Below are positions 1-5,622 of a stretch of DNA of 14,932 nucleotides, piece by piece (position 1 is the stretch's first letter; every line of letters starts with the position of its first letter). The stretch lies in the IMG/VR virus record IMGVR_UViG_2660238190_000004, positions 1-14,932 of that record; one strand, 5' to 3'. A model generated the notes under the pieces. It saw nothing but the letters and a program-made list of their open reading frames with translations, searched no databases and was not told the origin of the DNA. Position numbers and translations under genes: made by a program. The DNA comes from a virus (Duplodnaviria; Heunggongvirae; Uroviricota; Caudoviricetes).

Positions 1-282
1 TCAATAAATCCCATCATTGCGATCAACCTCATCCTTAACCATTGATGCGAGCAGTTCTTCCAGTTTCTGCGCTGACAGCTTTACCTGGTGATCTTCAGCA
101 TCTTCCCGGGCTATTGTGGTTCGCGCAGTGGCTGATTTTGCTGACATCACCACAGGGGGCAGACGGACCATTGAACCATGGCCTCCGGAACAAATAAGGG
201 CAAAAATAACAACCACTATCGAAAGCTTACAAACTAACCGCAGCACGTTCCTGCATACGACGTGTCTGCGGCATAATCCCAA
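1..282 (-). CDS. hypothetical small protein (uncertain; may start at an internal Met)
   Basis: Complete ORF ending with TGA at 1-3. An internal ATG ([13 protein letters not shown]...) has GGAGG about 10 nt upstream. Hydrophobic N-terminal stretch. No family recognised; its 5' end overlaps the tfa fragment. Confidence 0.2.
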
Positions 283-554
283 TGATTACTCCCTGACAGG
301 ATTTGCAGGCCACTCAATATCGGTGCAGTTGATGTATCAACACGATTCAACAATACCCGATATTTATTCCATGCCTCCAGCAACGATCTTTCTTCCTCCG
401 TTGCGATTTCCAGATCTACAGCATCCTGCAGTGGCGCAATATACTCACTGAATTCCTGGATGTAGAACTGTGTGGTGACGGTCTTCCAGCCATTCGTCTC
501 CTGCTGTATCGAAGCATACCAGGCTATTTCAATATCGCTATGCTGCGGCAGCAT
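234..554 (-). pseudogene. tail fibre assembly protein (Tfa) C-terminal fragment, frameshifted
   Basis: Translation contains [40 protein letters not shown], matching the C-terminal segment of the intact Tfa at 1334-1918. Relative to the intact copy a 1-nt difference ('ccgatattgag' vs 'cctgatattgag') shifts frame so the end reads [11 protein letters not shown]... instead of [11 protein letters not shown]. The N-terminal part is unrelated to Tfa. Confidence 0.6.
236..450. repeat. direct repeat copy 1 (about 215 bp, derived from the tfa 3' end plus downstream hairpin)
   Basis: Aligns by eye with 1285-1499 at high identity with scattered mismatches, from 'aaccgcagcacgtt...' through '...cagtggcgcaatatactcactg'. 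Confidence 0.8.
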
Positions 555-610
555 TTAACCCCTTGTAATTCATCGCCATAATTGATTTAATTCACAAATA
601 AAACTATAAC

Positions 611-1279
611 ATGGTGAAATCAATGAAAAAAAACACAGATGATGGGGCTAAAATTTACACACCACTTACCCTAAAGCTTTATGACTGGTGGGTTTTGGGA
701 GTATCAAATCGGCTTGCATGGGGATGTCCTACAAAGGAACACCTTCTTCCACACTATCTGGAACATGTAGGTAACAACCATCTGGATATTGGTGTTGGAA
801 CTGGGTTTTACCTTACTCACGTACCTGAGAGTAGTCTGATATCTTTAATGGATTTGAACGAAGCTAGCCTGAACGCGGCATCTACAAGGGCTGGGGAATC
901 AAAAATTAAACATAAAATTAGCCATGATGTTTTTGAACCTTATCCCGCGGCGTTACATGGTCAATTTGATTCCATTTCCATGTTTTACCTTCTTCACTGC
1001 CTGCCTGGAAATATATCTACAAAAAGCTGTGTAATACGCAATGCGGCGCAGGCCTTAACTGACGATGGAACTCTATACGGAGCCACAATTCTTGGCGATG
1101 GAGTTGTGCACAATAGCTTCGGTCAAAAACTGATGCGCATTTACAATCAGAAAGGCATCTTTTCAAACACAAAAGATTCCGAAGAAGGCTTAACACATAT
1201 ACTCTCAGAGCATTTCGAGAATGTTAAAACCAAGGTTCAAGGTACTGTAGTAATGTTTTCCGCTTCAGGGAAAAAATAG
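611..1279 (+). CDS. class I SAM-dependent methyltransferase (small-molecule or protein MTase type)
   Basis: 222-aa ORF with ATG start. Motif I LDIGVGTGFY (GxGxG SAM-binding loop), an acidic residue at the end of beta-2 (LMDLNE) and a motif II-like FDSISMFYLLHCLP. Visibly AT-rich compared with the flanking tfa sequence. Sits between two direct repeats. Resembles, from memory, the DLP12 ybcY position in E. coli K-12. Confidence 0.7.
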   Translation: MVKSMKKNTDDGAKIYTPLTLKLYDWWVLGVSNRLAWGCPTKEHLLPHYLEHVGNNHLDIGVGTGFYLTHVPESSLISLMDLNEASLNAASTRAGESKIKHKISHDVFEPYPAALHGQFDSISMFYLLHCLPGNISTKSCVIRNAAQALTDDGTLYGATILGDGVVHNSFGQKLMRIYNQKGIFSNTKDSEEGLTHILSEHFENVKTKVQGTVVMFSASGKK

Positions 1280-1284
1280 CATCC

Positions 1285-1499
1285 AACCGCAGCACGTTCT
1301 TGCTTAAGACGTGCTGCGGCATAATCCCAATGATTACTCCCTGACAGGGTTCGTAGGCCACTCAATATCAGGTGCAGTTGATGTATCAACACGGTTCAGC
1401 AACACCCGATACTTTTTCCAGGCTTCCAGCAATGAGGTTTCTTCCTCCGTTGCAATTTCCAGATCTGCAGCATCCTGAAGCGGCGCAATATGCTCACTG
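1285..1499. repeat. direct repeat copy 2 (overlaps the 3' end of the intact tfa)
   Basis: Second copy of the about 215-bp repeat; contains the tfa stop codon region and the downstream hairpin. Confidence 0.8.
1287..1319. terminator. stem-loop between convergent MTase (+) and tfa (-); putative bidirectional terminator
   Basis: Perfect inverted repeat 'ccgcagcacgt' / 'acgtgctgcgg' with an 11-nt spacer, located 8 nt after the MTase stop and 15 nt after the tfa stop. An A6 run at 1271-1276 gives a T-run on the minus strand about 10 nt beyond the stem, so it is not a textbook terminator. Confidence 0.35.
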
Positions 1500-1918
1500 G
1501 CTACCTGCATCAGGTTGTTTTTTGTTTCTTCCGCCTCCCGGATCCGGAACATTTTTTCTGCTTCCGTATCCTTCACCCAGGCTGTGCCGTTCCACTTCTG
1601 AAACTCCCCTTCCGGCGATAACCAGGTAACATTTTCCGGTAACGGACCGAGTTCAGAAATAAATAACTCGTCCCCTGACGCTACGTCATAAACCGTTTTA
1701 CCCCGATGGTCTTCAACGAGATGCCACGATGCCTCATCACTGTTGAAAACAGCCACAAAGCCAGCAGGAATATCTGGTGGTGCAATATCGGTACTGTTTG
1801 CTGGCAGACCTGTATGAGGCGGAATATATGCGTCACCTTCACCAATAAATTCATTAGTTCCGGCCAGCAGATTATAAATTTTTATGGTCCGTGCTTGTTC
1901 ACTCATTCTGAATGCCAT
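1334..1918 (-). CDS. tfa: tail fibre assembly protein Tfa
   Basis: 194 aa, [54 protein letters not shown]...[47 protein letters not shown]. Matches recalled lambdoid/e14-type Tfa proteins nearly end to end. Its ATG overlaps the stop of the upstream stf fragment (TAATG). Confidence 0.9.
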
Positions 1919-2304
1919 TATGCAAGCCTCACAATATAGTTAAATGCGATGTTTTTGACGGTGTTTTCCGCGTTACCAGCAGCGTTAACGGTGATGGTGT
2001 GTCCATGTGAACCAATCGCAACGGAGTGCGTATGCGCACCAATACCTACAGTATGTGCATGTGCGCCAGAACTTGCTGCAGTACCAGACAGCGAGTGGGT
2101 ATGAGCACCTGCTGACTGTGTCTGAATACGTTGATAATACGATCTACGGGAAGAAGTCCCCGGGCTTACTTGATACTGTGAATCCTGGACATAAGTGAAC
2201 CCACCGCCATCATAAAATGCTAACGCAGAACCGCCGCCTCCTGGCCAACGAATACCATTACCATGAGTATGATCACCGGCAGACCCCGTATTTACGCTGT
2301 AATG
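1918..2304 (-). pseudogene. stf: side tail fibre protein (Stf) C-terminal fragment, no start codon
   Basis: Hand translation of the minus strand gives ...[18 protein letters not shown]... and ends ...[26 protein letters not shown] with His-x-His repeat motifs typical of lambdoid side tail fibre C-termini. The frame opens just after an in-frame stop at 2305-2307, contains no Met, and abuts the Nu1 fragment. Confidence 0.75.
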
Positions 2305-2707
2305 TCAACGGCACACGCACAAGTATCCCCGAAATCTCCTGTGCCACACGTTGCAGAATGAAGGTAAACAGTTCAGTTTCCAGCACCACTCCGTCTTCAC
2401 GGGCATTTTTCAGTTCCTGCGCATCTGCCTGCGCTTTTGTGAGCCGGTAGCGTTCATAGTCAATGGTGCCGGGTTGTAAATCTGACTCCGCTGCCGCACG
2501 CAAATCGGCCAGTTCTTTGCGGAGCTTTTCGTTTTCGATATCAGTTTCCCTCTGCGCATACCACTGAATTGCCATGGCAGTATCAAATACAGATTCAATG
2601 CCCTTACTGCCTTTGGAGACGCAAGGGAGCCCCTGAGACTGCCAGCGTTCAATCGTCCGCGGGTCCACGTTAAAAATTTCGGCAAGCCTCTTTTTATTAA
2701 CCTTCAT
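2273..2707 (-). pseudogene. nu1: terminase small subunit Nu1, C-terminally truncated
   Basis: [105 protein letters not shown]... parallels lambda Nu1 (MEVNKKQLADIF...). Similarity stops about 5 codons before the stop (…[11 protein letters not shown]), and the protein is about 35 residues shorter than lambda Nu1. The track ORF begins at a TTG 8 codons upstream; the ATG at 2705-2707 aligns with the lambda start. Confidence 0.8.
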
Positions 2708-2839
2708 AGAACAACCCATTATCAAATACAAGGCCCGACATGAAAACGCCAGAAAAAGGCATTTTCGGACACTTTCATGTCGGACATTTATGAATGCAAT
2801 ATTAAAAAAAACAAAAAGTTATATTCGAGAAGTACCGAC

Positions 2840-2935
2840 ACGATTTTCCCTGAAAAATTTTCATAAATAGTGAAAAACCGCGAGGTCGCCGCCCCGTAAC
2901 GATCTGGATCACCGGAAAGGACCCGCCAACGACTT
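2840..2935 (-). other. cos site (cosB - cosN - cosQ) of the prophage
   Basis: Minus strand reads GGGGCGGCGACCTCGCGGTTTTTCACTATTTATGAAAATTTTTCAGGG, nearly identical to the lambda left end GGGCGGCGACCTCGCGGGTTTTCGCTATTTATGAAAATTTTCCGG. The 12-nt cohesive-end sequence is at 2883-2894. The other side (ccgtaacgatctggatcaccggaaaggaccc) matches the lambda right end/cosQ region. It lies immediately upstream of Nu1, as in lambda. Confidence 0.8.
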
Positions 2936-3117
2936 TCGCGTGCAGGCATTAAAAATTTTGCAGTTCCATGCCTAGTTGAAACCTCGATTTCTATAACATC
3001 CAATTTTGTAAATTTAGATATAGCTCAACTTTTCCCAATGTTTTCAAGTGTATAAAAACAATTGGCGTTACGCCATAACACTATACTTAGGATAAGTAAA
3101 GATTTTAAGGAGTTTTA

Positions 3118-4185
3118 ATGAGTCAACATCAATATTATCCACAGCTGAAATGGAAGCCTGCTGAATATGAATCTCTGATGCTTTTAGATCAAACTACGCT
3201 CTCTGGTTTTACTCCGATCATTACCATTCCAGACATAGACTGGGATTATGAAAACGAATGCTACAAGAAGAGTTTGAGTTCTTACTTATCTGACTTCGGT
3301 ATTAACCTTGCGGCATCCTGGAAAGCCAATCGTCCTGTTTTGCTGGATGTTAAATATTTAGATAAACATGGTTCGAGCCGCCATCATCCTCTAGATATGT
3401 GTATCCAAGATGCTAGAGTAAATGGTAAGGAAATTATCCCTGTTGTTTCTCCCGCATATTCAACAAACTATATACATGCTGTTCAACGCAACTTAATCAA
3501 TGGGCTCGCTATATCTATCACCCCCCAGACATGGCACCAATTCACAAGTCTGGTTAACCACTTAAATATTCATCCTAGTTTAATTGATGTAATCATTGAT
3601 TTTGGAGATATTCAAAACGCAACTGATAGTTTAAAACAACAAGCATTAAGCATGGTCAACACATTATCAGGCCAAGCTCCGTGGAGAAACTTGATTTTAT
3701 CTTCAACCGCATACCCGGCATCACAGGCAGGGATACCGCAACATCAAGTTCATCATATTCCGCGCCATGAATACGATCTTTGGATGTACGTAGTACAGAA
3801 TTTTAGCAATGGAAGAACGCCAAGTTTTAGTGATTATCCCACCGCTAGCTCTACCATTACGAGCGTAGACCCACGCTTCATGTCTCAGTATGTCTCAGTG
3901 AGATATTCGAACGATACCTCATGGATCTTTGTAAAAGGTACCGCAGTTAAAGGAAATGGATGGGGCCAAACTAAAAACTTATGTACTACCCTTGTTAGTT
4001 CGCCAGAGTATCAAGTCTTTGGCTCCAAATTTAGTTGGGGGGATGATTACATTTACCAAAGATCATTAGGCGCTAACAAATCTGGCGGCTCTAAAGAATG
4101 GCGTAAAGTTGCACATACGCACCATATTACGTTAGTCGTGAGACAGCTTTATTGGTTGGCGCAGACTCAGCCTGCCAAGCCTTAA
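3118..4185 (+). CDS. Beta-family-like protein (phage P4 Beta / sce7725-like), function unknown
   Basis: 355-aa ORF with ATG start and SD 'taaggag' 5 nt upstream. N-terminal YYPQLKWKPAEYESL...FTPIITIPD resembles the Y-x-P-x-L-K-x-K-x-G/A-E signature I recall for the Beta protein family. Markedly AT-rich. The family assignment is from memory and unverified. Confidence 0.65.
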   Translation: MSQHQYYPQLKWKPAEYESLMLLDQTTLSGFTPIITIPDIDWDYENECYKKSLSSYLSDFGINLAASWKANRPVLLDVKYLDKHGSSRHHPLDMCIQDARVNGKEIIPVVSPAYSTNYIHAVQRNLINGLAISITPQTWHQFTSLVNHLNIHPSLIDVIIDFGDIQNATDSLKQQALSMVNTLSGQAPWRNLILSSTAYPASQAGIPQHQVHHIPRHEYDLWMYVVQNFSNGRTPSFSDYPTASSTITSVDPRFMSQYVSVRYSNDTSWIFVKGTAVKGNGWGQTKNLCTTLVSSPEYQVFGSKFSWGDDYIYQRSLGANKSGGSKEWRKVAHTHHITLVVRQLYWLAQTQPAKP

Positions 4186-4747
4186 CTTTCCAGCCTACGC
4201 GTTTCTTTAAGGCTGTTCTGACTTCAGGCCTGAGATTCGCTATTGGAATATTTTCCGCAATAATATTCCATAACTCAAATCGGGGCTTGCTTTTGATTCC
4301 TTTGGAATAGCCCCATCGTTCAAGTACGTCGATACATTCATCTTTCCAAAGCAATTGAGCGAGCATCAATGTGTCATGGTTTCGATTAAGCTTTTCTCCA
4401 CGCATGTGCTTTATAAGAATGGCGCCTTTTGGCCCAACAGAAACCGTTTTAACGCCCCACCAACCTGGGATTAACTTTAATGCTCCCTCAAGGTGTTTCT
4501 CAGCTACGACAAGAGTAACCTTGTCCATTACAGAAGAATAATGCTTGATTTGAAGAGGCAAACGCTCCAAAGAGTCATATTCACTTTTGAGCTCGTACCC
4601 GTGTATAACACCATTTATTACAGCAATGTCTGCTCTACTGGCGCCAAGGGATATGGAAAATTCATCGACCACAAGGCAGTCTGGATCTAAATGCGATTCT
4701 TTCAAAAGCTTATGATGCACCGCGAACCTAACATCTTGATCTTTCAT
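4127..4747 (-). CDS. predicted PD-(D/E)xK-fold nuclease-like protein
   Basis: 206-aa ORF with ATG start and a strong SD (ggagggagtaaggag) upstream. Motif VVDEF...RADIAVINGVIHGYELKS gives E ... D-(hydrophobic strand)-ExK spacing typical of restriction-endonuclease-like folds. Convergent with the Beta-like gene and overlaps it by 59 nt at the 3' ends. Confidence 0.6.
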   Translation of the reverse strand: MKDQDVRFAVHHKLLKESHLDPDCLVVDEFSISLGASRADIAVINGVIHGYELKSEYDSLERLPLQIKHYSSVMDKVTLVVAEKHLEGALKLIPGWWGVKTVSVGPKGAILIKHMRGEKLNRNHDTLMLAQLLWKDECIDVLERWGYSKGIKSKPRFELWNIIAENIPIANLRPEVRTALKKRVGWKVKAWQAESAPTNKAVSRLT

Positions 4748-4768
4748 GACTTCTCCTTACTCCCTCCG

Positions 4769-4804
4769 TTATTGAATTATAGCGCACTGCATTTTACTGC
4801 ATTT
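4769..4804 (-). promoter_or_regulatory. putative promoter of the nuclease-like gene, with tandem direct repeats
   Basis: Consensus -10 TATAAT on the minus strand (plus coordinates 4776-4781), about 29 nt upstream of the ATG at 4747. Two tandem copies of 'actgcattt' (plus strand, 4786-4804) occupy the spacer/-35 region, where no good -35 hexamer is present. Confidence 0.35.
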
Positions 4805-5096
4805 GAGAGATTTGACCACTTCAATCACAAAATGCTTATCTGCAGCAACAAGATTCATAGCCATACGACTATGGTGATTACCTTTTGTCTGGAAAACTGA
4901 CCATTCCACGAAGATCAGATAGGTCTATAGAATCTTGGTTTGTCATAGCGTTCGTCTTACTTTGAGATGAACCTTTGCTGCATAGGAGATCAGCCCGTCA
5001 AGGCTCACCAGCACTAACTGACTACTCAAAGGCTCATTCCAAAGGGTTTGGTTCGACGTGGTTGAGTGCGCTGCGGTGCGCGGTGAAATACCTGTA

Positions 5097-5126
5097 CAAA
5101 AATGCCCCGCATCTGCGAGGCATTTT
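5097..5126. terminator. intrinsic terminator downstream of Rz/Rz1 (bidirectional hairpin)
   Basis: Plus strand 'aaaaaatgccccgcatctgcgaggcatttt': GC-rich imperfect stem flanked by an A-run on one side and a T-run on the other, giving a U-tract after the stem on either strand. Lies about 40 nt past the Rz stop. Confidence 0.5.
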
Positions 5127-5163
5127 CCTGAAAGTCACGTATTAAATTTCAGTGAAATTAAAA

Positions 5164-5622
5164 TTATTTTAAGCACTGCGTCCTGATGTACTCCTGCAGG
5201 TAGTTGACCTGAGCGGTTATCTTGTCGATTCCACTTCGGAGACGGTAATAATTGAGTTCAGCATCTGCTGTAAGTCTTGGGCTTTCTCCATCGCCCATGC
5301 TGCTGGCTCCGGTCGTTGACTTTGCACAGGTGGCGGCGACTTGCAGGCGCTTACGCCCAGCAGAAACATCAGCACGAAGACTTTCGATAGTCGCGTTAGC
5401 ATCAGCAAGCTCCTTTGTGTATCTGGCGTCGAGTTCTGCTACATCACGCTGACGCATCTGCATGTCAGTAATTACCACGTTCGCCAGCTTCAGTTCTCTG
5501 GCATTTTTGTCGCGCTGGGCTTTGTAGGTAATGGCGTTATCGCGGTAATGATTAACAGCCCATGACAGGCAGACGATGGTGCAGATAACCAGAGTATAAA
5601 TAATCGCTGCGACTCTGCTCAC
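5164..5622 (-). CDS. Rz: i-spanin Rz
   Basis: ...[76 protein letters not shown]... is nearly collinear with lambda Rz. Probable GTG start at 5620-5622 overlapping the endolysin stop (GTGA); the track ORF starts at a TTG 5 codons upstream. Confidence 0.9.
5217..5408 (-). CDS. Rz1: o-spanin Rz1 (lipoprotein) embedded in Rz in an alternate frame
   Basis: 63-aa ORF nested inside Rz. Signal sequence with lipobox-like LLGVSAC followed by a proline-rich segment ([16 protein letters not shown]), as in lambda Rz1. The exact start is uncertain. Confidence 0.8.

What the first reader, a model, noticed from the sequence alone, without database searches (positions are those of the whole stretch)
4769..4804. 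Consensus -10 with tandem 'ACTGCATTT' repeats in place of a -35 upstream of the nuclease-like gene
The minus strand has a perfect TATAAT about 29 nt before the start codon but no recognisable -35 hexamer. The -35/spacer region is instead occupied by two adjacent copies of a 9-nt motif. That layout is typical of activator-dependent or repressor-controlled promoters and would give the putative nuclease tight, conditional expression.
Basis: seen in the sequence. Interest (0 to 1): 0.45.

Follow-up and report, generated by a model that had tools for sequence, protein, structure and literature searches.

The report
Conserved promoter of a prophage defence cassette

Summary
Observation confirmed. 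On the minus strand AAATGCAGT occurs twice exactly (4804-4796 and 4794-4786, one A between). GCGC and TATAAT (4781-4776) follow, then AAGGAG and the ATG at 4747. No hexamer 15-19 nt upstream of TATAAT matches TTGACA at more than 2 of 6 positions.

The gene is an sce7726 / phage P4 cII-like PD-(D/E)xK protein. It is convergent with a P4 Beta-like gene, and together they form a low-GC two-gene cargo cassette (a moron) between Rz and Nu1 of a lambdoid prophage. The cassette is related to the P4 gop-beta-cII anti-phage system but lacks gop.

Across 12-14 diverged lineages, synonymous sites are near saturation, yet the stretch from TGGYCA to TATAAT is almost invariant. Every lineage keeps T[GA]G[CT][CT]A, exactly 16 nt, then TA[A/G/C]AAT. 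The junction of the two repeats therefore forms the -10 of a conventional sigma-70 promoter ("P_up").

TATAAT lies 9 nt downstream of that -10. It corresponds to the TGCTATAAT extended -10 of distant relatives, including P4 cII, and is damaged in three lineages.

The repeat is exact only in E. coli (6-8 of 9 elsewhere). Even so, repeat 1 is conserved beyond what RNA polymerase needs, so an operator role remains possible. The geometry fits repression, not activation. This is an ordinary, uncharacterised promoter of modest interest.

The parts
4819..4832 (-). T-rich block TTTTGTGATTGAAG just upstream of the -35-like hexamer. It may act like an UP element. It is conserved in one subclade (E. coli, Klebsiella, Edwardsiella, Cronobacter, Ps. 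cerasi) and replaced by ACAATTGCCC-type sequence in the other.
   Evidence: Alignments.
4813..4818 (-). -35-like hexamer TGGTCA of the upstream promoter P_up (4 of 6 to TTGACA). The positions that match the consensus (T1, G3, C5, A6) are the conserved ones.
   Evidence: Scan. The form T[GA]G[CT][CT]A is present in 14 of 14 lineages. Conservation P = 3e-4 against 4-fold sites.
4796..4804 (-). Repeat unit 1, AAATGCAGT. It lies in the spacer of P_up, and its last T is the first base of the P_up -10. Seven of its 8 non-hexamer positions are nearly invariant across lineages.
   Evidence: P = 1e-5.
4791..4796 (-). TAAAAT, the -10 hexamer of P_up, formed by the junction of the two repeat units. Across lineages it varies only at its third position (A/G/C).
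4786..4794 (-). Repeat unit 2, AAATGCAGT. Its AAAT belongs to the P_up -10. Its GCAGT, with the following GCGC, forms the GC-rich discriminator and start region of P_up, and also the spacer of the TATAAT promoter.
4776..4785 (-). GCGC plus the consensus TATAAT (4781-4776), the downstream -10 (P_down). It corresponds to the TGCTATAAT extended -10 of distant relatives and P4 cII. In this clade the TG is displaced by 2 nt. It could be a second promoter or a -10-like element at about +3 to +8 of the P_up transcript.
4753..4758 (-). Shine-Dalgarno sequence AAGGAG, 5 nt before the ATG at 4747. The leader is unstructured.
   Evidence: RNA fold (-1.5 kcal/mol, z = +1.1).
4127..4747 (-). sce7726 / P4 cII-like gene (206 aa). 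It has a PD-(D/E)xK nuclease fold with a D40...E52-x-K54 motif and a C-terminal helical domain.
3118..4185 (+). Beta-family gene (P4 beta-like, 355 aa). It is convergent with the cII-like gene and overlaps it by 59 bp.
   Evidence: Pfam PF14350 E = 8e-56. PADLOC beta and PD-Lambda-2_C. RefSeq annotation.
3014..3057 (+). Conserved upstream block of the beta gene (TTAGATATAGCTCAACTTTT...GTGTATAAAA). It marks the other end of the mobile cassette and does not contain the AAATGCAGT motif.
5099..5126 (-). Strong intrinsic terminator hairpin downstream of Rz. It isolates the cassette from upstream transcription in a lysogen, which is why the gene needs its own promoter.
   Evidence: inverted repeat I2. 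(-22.6 kcal/mol, z = -5.4).
4943..5015 (-). 5' remnant of a Rha-family gene. It marks where the cassette displaced ancestral prophage sequence.

Best explanation
The 4776-4832 stretch is the cassette's own promoter region for the P4 cII-like nuclease gene. That gene belongs to a two-gene (Beta / cII-like) cargo cassette, a 'moron', inserted between Rz and Nu1 of a lambdoid prophage. Repeat 1 lies in its spacer. The junction of the repeats forms its -10. Repeat 2 plus GCGC forms its GC-rich discriminator and start region. The consensus TATAAT 9 nt further downstream is the clade's version of the family's ancestral extended -10 (TGCTATAAT in P4 cII and distant relatives). Here it has lost correct TG spacing. 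It acts either as a second, weaker, -35-independent promoter starting near 4769, or as a -10-like element in the early transcribed region. The promoter lets a lysogen express the gene independently of the phage late operon, which is blocked by the terminator at 5099-5126. Shown here: the sequence elements, their strong and position-specific conservation, the identity of the genes, and the mobility of the cassette. Inferred: which -10 is used, the start sites, and any regulation. Repeat 1 is conserved more than a spacer needs to be. A protein binding the two 9-mers, most plausibly as a repressor given their position, is therefore a reasonable add-on, with roughly 0.3 probability.
For: 1. The scan tool reports TGGTCA-16-TAAAAT as a 9-of-12 match and does not report the TATAAT promoter.
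2. All 14 lineages with 80-85% protein identity keep T[GA]G[CT][CT]A, exactly 16 nt, TA[A/G/C]AAT. They come from E. coli, Klebsiella, Edwardsiella, Cronobacter, Enterobacter, Pectobacterium, Providencia, Proteus, Ps. cerasi and metagenomes. Variation falls only at -35 positions that already mismatch the consensus and at the third, least critical, -10 position.
3. P_up is the best-scoring sigma-70 arrangement in 9 of 12 lineages and among the top three in all 12.
4. Synonymous 4-fold sites are 32-51% identical between the window and the other lineages, and 1 of 38 columns is invariant. The promoter elements show 10-12 of 12 majority counts: P = 3e-4 for the -35-like hexamer, about 5e-6 for TAAAAT, and below 1e-5 for TATAAT. 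The 4 nt in mid-spacer and the 8 nt after TATAAT are unconstrained.
5. TATAAT is TATAAC in Pectobacterium, GATAAT in Providencia, and displaced by about 5 nt (TATGAT) in Proteus. The P_up geometry is untouched in all three.
6. Distant relatives (53-57% identity) and P4 cII carry TGCTATA(A/T)N, an extended -10, at the corresponding place.
7. Moron context: cassette GC is 40.7% against 48-50% in the flanks. The same cassette sits in unrelated neighbourhoods. Homology with other prophages resumes at about 4943. There is a strong terminator upstream.
8. No Rfam family matches and the leader has no RNA structure.
Against: There is no transcription start-site data for this locus; nothing was found in the literature searches. 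A 9-of-12 match is common by chance: 6.8 are expected per 3.6 kb. The case for P_up therefore rests on conservation, and a protein-binding site overlapping the same bases could also produce that conservation. TATAAT is a perfect consensus, is itself highly conserved, and matches the -10 of distant relatives, so it could be the main promoter and TGGYCA an upstream site. Seven of the 8 spacer positions of repeat 1 are nearly invariant (P = 1e-5). A plain sigma-70 promoter does not explain that.
Confidence: 0.6

Rival explanations
1. This is the repressor form of the first reader's model. TATAAT, with or without TAAAAT, is the core promoter, and the two 9-mers (AAAT-C-GT at one helical turn apart) are an operator. 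The binding protein could be cassette-encoded, either the cII-like nuclease through its C-terminal helical domain or Beta. It could also be a conserved enterobacterial factor. Binding would occlude RNA polymerase and keep a potentially toxic nuclease low until a signal arrives.
Against: The units are identical only in E. coli and match at 6-8 of 9 positions elsewhere. They vary at different positions in each unit (position 5 in unit 1; positions 1 and 7 in unit 2), with no sign that the two copies are kept alike. Much of unit 2's conservation is explained by the TAAAAT hexamer. The motif is absent from the beta promoter and from the rest of the window. No helix-turn-helix or other established sequence-specific DNA-binding fold was found. 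Consensus sites recalled from memory for LexA, CRP, CpxR, PhoB/PhoP, CytR and lambda CII fit poorly.
Confidence: 0.3
2. TATAAT is the only -10, it lacks a -35, and the tandem 9-mers are the binding site of a transcription activator that replaces the -35 contact, as in pho-box or lambda CII-type promoters.
For: TATAAT has no -35 at spacers of 15-19 nt. Direct repeats at a 10-bp period covering the -35 region resemble the layout of lambda pRE (TTGC-N6-TTGC; here ATGC-N6-ATGC) and of pho boxes (from memory). The repeats are conserved.
Against: The repeats extend to 4 nt from TATAAT, with their centre near -26, whereas class II activators sit near -41.5 and CII tetrads lie 13 nt from the -10, not 7. 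The tetrads read ATGC, ATAC or ATCT in different lineages and never TTGC. The period is 10, not the 11 of pho boxes. The cassette occurs in non-phage chromosomal contexts that lack a lambdoid CII. TATAAT loses its critical -7T or -12T in two lineages, and its distance to the repeats changes in Proteus, while the alternative promoter stays intact.
Confidence: 0.07
3. The exact repeat is an evolutionary accident. A 10-bp slippage duplication, or 'perfection' of an imperfect repeat, occurred in an otherwise ordinary promoter, and the repeat has no function as a repeat.
For: The repeat is exact only in the E. coli lineage. A second exact period-10 repeat in the same cassette (3880-3899) is plainly incidental coding sequence and is imperfect in the other lineages. 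Tatumella (57% identity) has a single clear AAATGCTGT next to its TGCTATAGT.
Against: This does not conflict with the best explanation; it concerns origin only. Both units are old: they are present in every lineage of the clade. Both are individually constrained, so the DNA is functional whatever its origin.
Confidence: 0.35

Closest known systems
Prophage 'morons' (autonomously expressed cargo cassettes in lambdoid phages, e.g. lambda bor/lom and the HK97 morons; concept recalled from memory)
   Same: It is a low-GC insert between conserved phage modules, here Rz and Nu1/cos. It has its own promoter and is separated from the late operon by a terminator. It occurs in otherwise unrelated phages and islands.
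   Different: It carries two convergent, overlapping genes with two separate promoters. There is no terminator of its own between the genes.
Phage P4 gop-beta-cII anti-phage locus (Ghisotti 1990, from memory; Rousset 2022, PMC9122126)
   Same: It has Beta and cII homologues in the same convergent arrangement. P4 cII also has a TATAAT about 30 nt before its ATG.
   Different: There is no gop homologue. Protein identity to P4 cII is only 27-28%. P4 cII has a true extended -10 (TGCTATAAT) and no tandem 9-mers or TGGYCA-16-TAAAAT arrangement. Defence activity of the two-gene form has not been tested.
Overlapping or tandem sigma-70 promoters, and extended -10 promoters without a -35 (e.g. gal P1/P2; from memory)
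   Same: There are two -10 hexamers 15 bp apart serving one gene. The downstream one is consensus and has no -35. Its homologues in relatives carry the TGn extension.
   Different: In this clade the TG sits 2 nt too far upstream (TGCGC-TATAAT), so the definition of an extended -10 is not met. Use of two start sites is unproven.
Sigma-70-dependent promoter-proximal pause elements (lambda PR'-type -10-like sequence in the early transcribed region; from memory)
   Same: If P_up is used, a perfect TATAAT lies at about +3 to +8 on the non-template strand. This is the layout that traps sigma-70 and pauses early elongation complexes.
   Different: There is no evidence of pausing. The cassette occurs outside phages, so coupling to a Q antiterminator is not expected. 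The element is equally explained as a second promoter.
Lambda CII-activated promoters (pRE, pI, paQ) and pho-box promoters (direct repeats replacing the -35; from memory)
   Same: Direct repeats at about one helical turn cover the -35 region of a promoter with a good -10.
   Different: The tetrad sequence, the distance to the -10 and the period do not match. See the membership tests.

Membership tests
Sigma-70 -35/-10 promoter (P_up) | A -10 hexamer with T-12, A-11 and T-7 | tested here: met
   TAAAAT at 4796-4791. The form TA[AGC]AAT is present in 14 of 14 lineages.
Sigma-70 -35/-10 promoter (P_up) | A -35 hexamer resembling TTGACA at a 16-18 nt spacing | tested here: met
   TGGTCA matches at 4 of 6 positions with a 16-nt spacer. 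The spacer length is invariant in 14 lineages.
Sigma-70 -35/-10 promoter (P_up) | A mapped transcription start 6-8 nt after the -10 | not testable with these tools
   No transcript data were available.
Extended -10 (TGn) promoter | TG at -15/-14, one base upstream of the -10 hexamer | tested here: not met
   The window has TGCGC-TATAAT, with C at -15 and G at -14. The feature is met in P4 cII and in loci L008-L012 (TGCTATAAT, TGCTATAAG, TGCTATATA).
Lambda CII-dependent promoter | TTGC-N6-TTGC flanking the -35, with the second tetrad about 13 nt from the -10 | tested here: not met
   The window has ATGC-N6-ATGC, 7 nt from TATAAT. The tetrads vary between lineages (ATAC, ATCT). The reference geometry is recalled from memory.
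Pho-box / OmpR-family activator site | Direct repeats with an 11-bp period ending about 10 bp upstream of the -10 | tested here: not met
   The period is 10 and the repeats end 4 bp from TATAAT. The reference is recalled from memory.
LexA (SOS) box | CTG-N10-CAG palindrome | tested here: not met
   The plus strand gives CTG-N10-CAT. The Klebsiella-type variant moves further from the consensus.
CRP class I/II site | TGTGA-N6-TCACA centred at -41.5 or -61.5 | tested here: not met
   The TGTGA half-site at 4829-4825 is paired with TGGTC. Its centre lies at about -38 relative to P_up or -52.5 relative to P_down. It is absent from half of the lineages.
Moron (autonomous prophage cargo cassette) | Inserted between conserved phage genes, with atypical composition and its own promoter, and found in different contexts | tested here: met
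   Promoter activity itself is inferred.
gop-beta-cII defence system | Beta-family protein (PF14350) | tested here: met
   E = 8e-56. PADLOC 'beta'.
gop-beta-cII defence system | cII / sce7726-family protein convergent with beta | tested here: met
   NF033832 E = 2e-54. PADLOC 'cll' E = 4e-31. P4 layout.
gop-beta-cII defence system | gop toxin gene upstream of beta | tested here: not met
   There is no ORF or tblastn match. The beta upstream region is non-coding and conserved only for about 105 nt.
gop-beta-cII defence system | Protection against phage infection | not testable with these tools
   Shown only for the three-gene P4 locus (PMC9122126).
Known structured RNA (riboswitch, leader, sRNA) | A match to an Rfam model, or a stable conserved fold | tested here: not met
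   No Rfam hit at E <= 1 in 2700-5300. The leader folds at -1.5 kcal/mol, z = +1.1.

The most novel reading that the evidence does not exclude
The promoter may be a compact regulatory switch for an abortive-infection-type nuclease. Two overlapping promoters share a direct-repeat operator (AAAT-C-GT, twice, one helical turn apart), which a cassette-encoded protein (the cII-like nuclease or Beta) or a host factor occupies. The perfectly conserved TATAAT at +3 to +8 of the upstream transcript would add a sigma-70-dependent early pause. Expression of the nuclease would then be held low and released on infection. The evidence does not exclude this. Repeat 1 is constrained without any known RNA polymerase requirement, and the TATAAT, GCGC and TAAAAT spacing is fixed in 13 of 14 lineages.
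Probability: 0.15. Interest if true: 0.55.

Novelty: new member of a known kind. Interest (0 to 1): 0.3.

Why it matters
Beta/cII-like gene pairs are widespread on prophages, plasmids and islands. Their three-gene P4 relative is a proven anti-phage system whose mechanism and regulation are unknown. Locating the cassette's own promoter, and showing which bases are constrained, gives a ready set of point mutations and a roughly 90-bp fragment for reporter and footprinting work. It also corrects a tempting misreading: a perfect TATAAT without a -35 does not by itself indicate activator dependence. The promoter itself looks ordinary. The only feature beyond the ordinary is the unexplained conservation of repeat 1.

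Tried and rejected
1. The motif elsewhere: no other exact copy in the window, and one-mismatch copies occur at chance level. It is absent from the beta promoter. The 63-nt promoter block occurs only at this locus, in 127 of 5426 E. coli genomes, and on no plasmid. It is therefore not a shared regulon motif or a portable promoter module.
2. Known RNA families or a leader structure: none.
3. Known transcription-factor sites. Consensus sequences recalled from memory were compared by eye for LexA, CRP, lambda CII, PhoB/PhoP, CpxR (GTAAA-N5-GTAAA; only one good pentamer), CytR (GTTGCATT octamers; 6 of 8 per unit, an untested lead), Fis, IHF, sigma-54 and sigma-E. None fits both sequence and position, and no position-weight-matrix library was available.
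4. A sigma-S-type reading (TG-N2-C-TATAAT with C at -13, from memory) is compatible with the sequence but cannot be tested here.
5. A divergent promoter on the plus strand (TTGACC is the reverse complement of GGTCAA): no conserved -10 partner.
6. The Ghisotti 1990 paper on P4 cII transcription could not be read.
7. The N-terminally truncated 73%-identity homologue (L086) has lost its promoter and was uninformative.
8. A DNA-binding fold in the cII-like protein: only a weak SAP-like similarity. The afdb50 library was unavailable.
9. A gop homologue: none.

Full report
**1. Checking the observation**

The minus strand between 4832 and 4745 reads TTTTGTGATTGAAG TGGTCA AATCTCTC AAATGCAGT A AAATGCAGT GCGC TATAAT TCAATAACGGAGGGAGT AAGGAG AAGTC ATG.

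- The two AAATGCAGT copies are exact, at 4804-4796 and 4794-4786. One base separates them, so the period is 10.
- TATAAT is at 4781-4776, with 28 nt between it and the ATG at 4747.
- No hexamer 15-19 nt upstream of TATAAT matches TTGACA at more than 2 of 6 positions.
- An exact run of at least 9 nt at period 10 is expected 0.037 times per dinucleotide shuffle of the window.

The description is therefore accurate.

Two qualifications apply:

- The window contains a second exact period-10 repeat, ATGTCTCAGT twice, at 3880-3899. It is ordinary coding sequence of the Beta gene and is imperfect in relatives. Exactness alone is therefore weak evidence of function.
- The consensus scan reports a different promoter on this strand: TGGTCA (4818-4813), 16 nt, TAAAAT (4796-4791), a 9-of-12 match. 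Its -10 is the junction of the two repeats.

**2. The gene and its setting**

The ORF at 4747-4127 (206 aa) is an sce7726-family protein (NCBIfam E = 2e-54). It matches the PADLOC model 'cll' and is a distant homologue of phage P4 cII.

The gene is convergent with a Beta-family gene (3118-4185, PF14350 E = 8e-56) and overlaps it by 59 bp. This mirrors the P4 beta/cII layout. P4 gop-beta-cII protects against phages lambda and P1 (PMC9122126), and a phage accessory gene triggers it to kill the cell (bioRxiv 10.1101/2023.04.06.535777). This window has no gop homologue.

The window is a lambdoid prophage of E. coli, identical to many RefSeq chromosomes. On the minus strand the order is:

1. Q antiterminator, DNA methylase and two tRNA genes.
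2. An esterase, a P21-type holin, a DUF1327 protein, lysozyme and Rz.
3. The cassette.
4. A truncated Nu1.

Several features mark the pair as a self-contained cargo cassette (a moron) spanning roughly 3005-4835:

- A strong terminator hairpin follows Rz (5126-5099, -22.6 kcal/mol, z = -5.4).
- Homology to other prophages, which carry a Rha-family gene there, resumes at about 4943.
- The cassette is 40.7% GC against 48-50% in its flanks.
- The same pair occurs in unrelated neighbourhoods. Examples are a restriction-enzyme gene in Providencia, tail genes in Proteus, metabolic genes in Pectobacterium, and other Rz genes.

In a lysogen the gene needs its own promoter.

**3. Comparative test of the promoter**

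Relatives were collected through the protein, not through the motif. Fourteen lineages with 80-85% protein identity were obtained.

Synonymous 4-fold sites are only 32-51% identical between the window and the other lineages. Just 1 of 38 such columns is invariant across 12 lineages. Unconstrained DNA should therefore be scrambled, and some of it is. The 4 nt after TGGCCAAAT(T) and the 8 nt after TATAAT are as variable as 4-fold sites (P = 0.89 and 0.91).

The functional elements, by contrast, are nearly invariant (majority count out of 12 lineages):

| Element | Mean majority count | P against 4-fold sites |
|---|---|---|
| -35-like hexamer | 10.7 | 3e-4 |
| Repeat 1 outside the hexamer | 10.75 | 1e-5 |
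| TAAAAT | 11.3 | about 5e-6 |
| TATAAT | 11.2 | below 1e-5 |

The region is under purifying selection. Because the variable patches are so short, recent recombination is an unlikely explanation.

**4. Which -10 is used**

Every lineage keeps T[GA]G[CT][CT]A, exactly 16 nt, TA[A/G/C]AAT.

- The -35-like hexamer varies only at positions 2 and 4, which already mismatch TTGACA.
- The -10 varies only at its third position, the least important one.
- The spacer length never changes.

This is the pattern expected of a working sigma-70 promoter, called P_up here. It is the top-scoring arrangement in 9 of 12 lineages and among the top three in all 12.

TATAAT (P_down) is intact in 11 of 14 lineages. 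It is TATAAC in Pectobacterium, which loses the critical -7T. It is GATAAT in Providencia. In Proteus a deletion brings a TATGAT to 4 nt after the upstream -10 instead of 9 nt. Damage and indels are therefore tolerated at and before TATAAT but never within P_up.

TATAAT is nevertheless not accidental. Relatives at 53-57% identity and P4 cII carry TGCTATAAT, TGCTATAAG or TGCTATATA at the corresponding place. That is a classic extended -10, which explains how the ancestral promoter worked without a -35. In the window's clade two extra bases (TGCGC-TATAAT) displace the TG, so the extended -10 definition is no longer met.

My reading is that P_up is the main promoter. TATAAT is then either a second, weaker promoter or, at about +3 to +8 of the P_up transcript, a -10-like element that could pause early elongation. 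Which applies cannot be decided without mapping the transcription start.

**5. The repeats themselves**

The two units are identical only in E. coli, where all 127 carrier genomes share them. The single polymorphism in the block is at 4772, downstream of TATAAT. Elsewhere the units match each other at 6-8 of 9 positions.

The variable positions differ between the units: position 5 in unit 1, and positions 1 and 7 in unit 2. Nothing suggests that the two copies are kept alike.

Part of the conservation is explained by P_up. The last base of unit 1, the junction A and the AAAT of unit 2 together form the -10 hexamer. The conservation of AAAT-CAG in unit 1, which is only spacer for P_up and unlike TTGACA for P_down, is not explained by RNA polymerase contacts I know of. 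That leaves room for a bound protein.

The units span about -20 to -2 of P_up and -35 to -17 of P_down. Occupancy there would block polymerase, so repression is plausible and classical activation is not.

No candidate binding protein was identified:

- The motif is absent from the Beta promoter, which has its own conserved block at 3014-3057.
- It is absent elsewhere in the window.
- It is absent from other E. coli loci and from plasmids.
- Recalled consensus sites for LexA, CRP, lambda CII (TTGC-N6-TTGC, 13 nt from the -10; here ATGC-N6-ATGC, 7 nt away), pho boxes, CpxR and others do not fit in sequence or position. A loose resemblance to CytR octamers is an untested lead.
- The cII-like protein has only a weak SAP-like similarity in its C-terminal domain.

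**6. Verdict**

The inference 'no -35, therefore activator-dependent' is not supported, because a conserved conventional promoter runs through the repeats. Repressor control is possible at roughly 0.3 probability and remains unproven.

This is a previously uncharacterised but ordinary promoter of a known kind of element: a prophage cargo cassette related to P4 gop-beta-cII. Its value lies in guiding experiments on a widespread, mechanistically unknown Beta/cII-like gene pair. Its one real puzzle is the constraint on repeat 1.

Noticed in passing
window 3880-3899 (+): A second exact period-10 tandem repeat, ATGTCTCAGT twice, lies inside the Beta coding sequence, in frame (MSQYVSV). It is imperfect in Klebsiella, Edwardsiella and L071 (for example ATGTCTCAATATGTTGCAGT). 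Two exact period-10 repeats in one cassette, against 0.037 expected per window, both perfect only in the E. coli lineage, could be coincidence or could reflect templated 'repeat-perfecting' mutation.
   Followed up: partly
window 4127-4185: The Beta and cII-like genes converge and overlap by 59 bp with no terminator between them. Relatives overlap by 4-59 bp or are a few bases apart. Each transcript must run antisense into the other gene, so transcriptional interference or antisense control is possible.
   Followed up: no
window 3014-3057 (+): The Beta gene's upstream region has its own conserved block, TTAGAT(N)TAG(Y)TCAA(Y)TTTT...GTATAAAA. It also has a good -10-like element and no convincing -35. 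It is unrelated in sequence to the cII-like promoter.
   Followed up: partly
window 4943-5015 (-): This is the 5' remnant (about 24 codons) of a Rha-family regulator gene that is intact at this position in O111 and many other prophages. It marks the site where the cassette replaced ancestral sequence.
   Followed up: partly
window 5099-5126: A strong hairpin flanked by an A-run and a T-run lies just downstream of Rz, the form of a bidirectional intrinsic terminator (-22.6 kcal/mol, z = -5.4).
   Followed up: yes
window 234-2731 (-): The Nu1 (terminase small subunit) gene is cut to 152 aa and abuts tail-fibre-assembly genes, with a methyltransferase gene at 611-1279 (+). The head and tail morphogenesis genes present in the otherwise identical prophage of strain DA33133 are deleted here, so this prophage is defective.
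   Followed up: partly
L004 (Escherichia phage Rac-SA53) 2070-3000: In Rac-SA53 the 54%-identical cII-like gene has an IS1 inserted 165 bp upstream. Its upstream region keeps TGGTCA and AAATGGCATT but not the tandem repeat or the 16-nt geometry.
   Followed up: no
L086 1300-1940: A metagenomic homologue at 73% identity is truncated at the N-terminus. It starts at the equivalent of residue 49 and has lost the promoter block, so it is a likely pseudogene next to an intact Beta gene.
   Followed up: partly
window 4856-4873 (-): A weak terminator-like hairpin (CATAGTCGTATGGCTATG, -8 kcal/mol, z = -1.5) lies about 40 nt upstream of the -35-like hexamer. It is specific to E. coli and probably insignificant.
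   Followed up: yes
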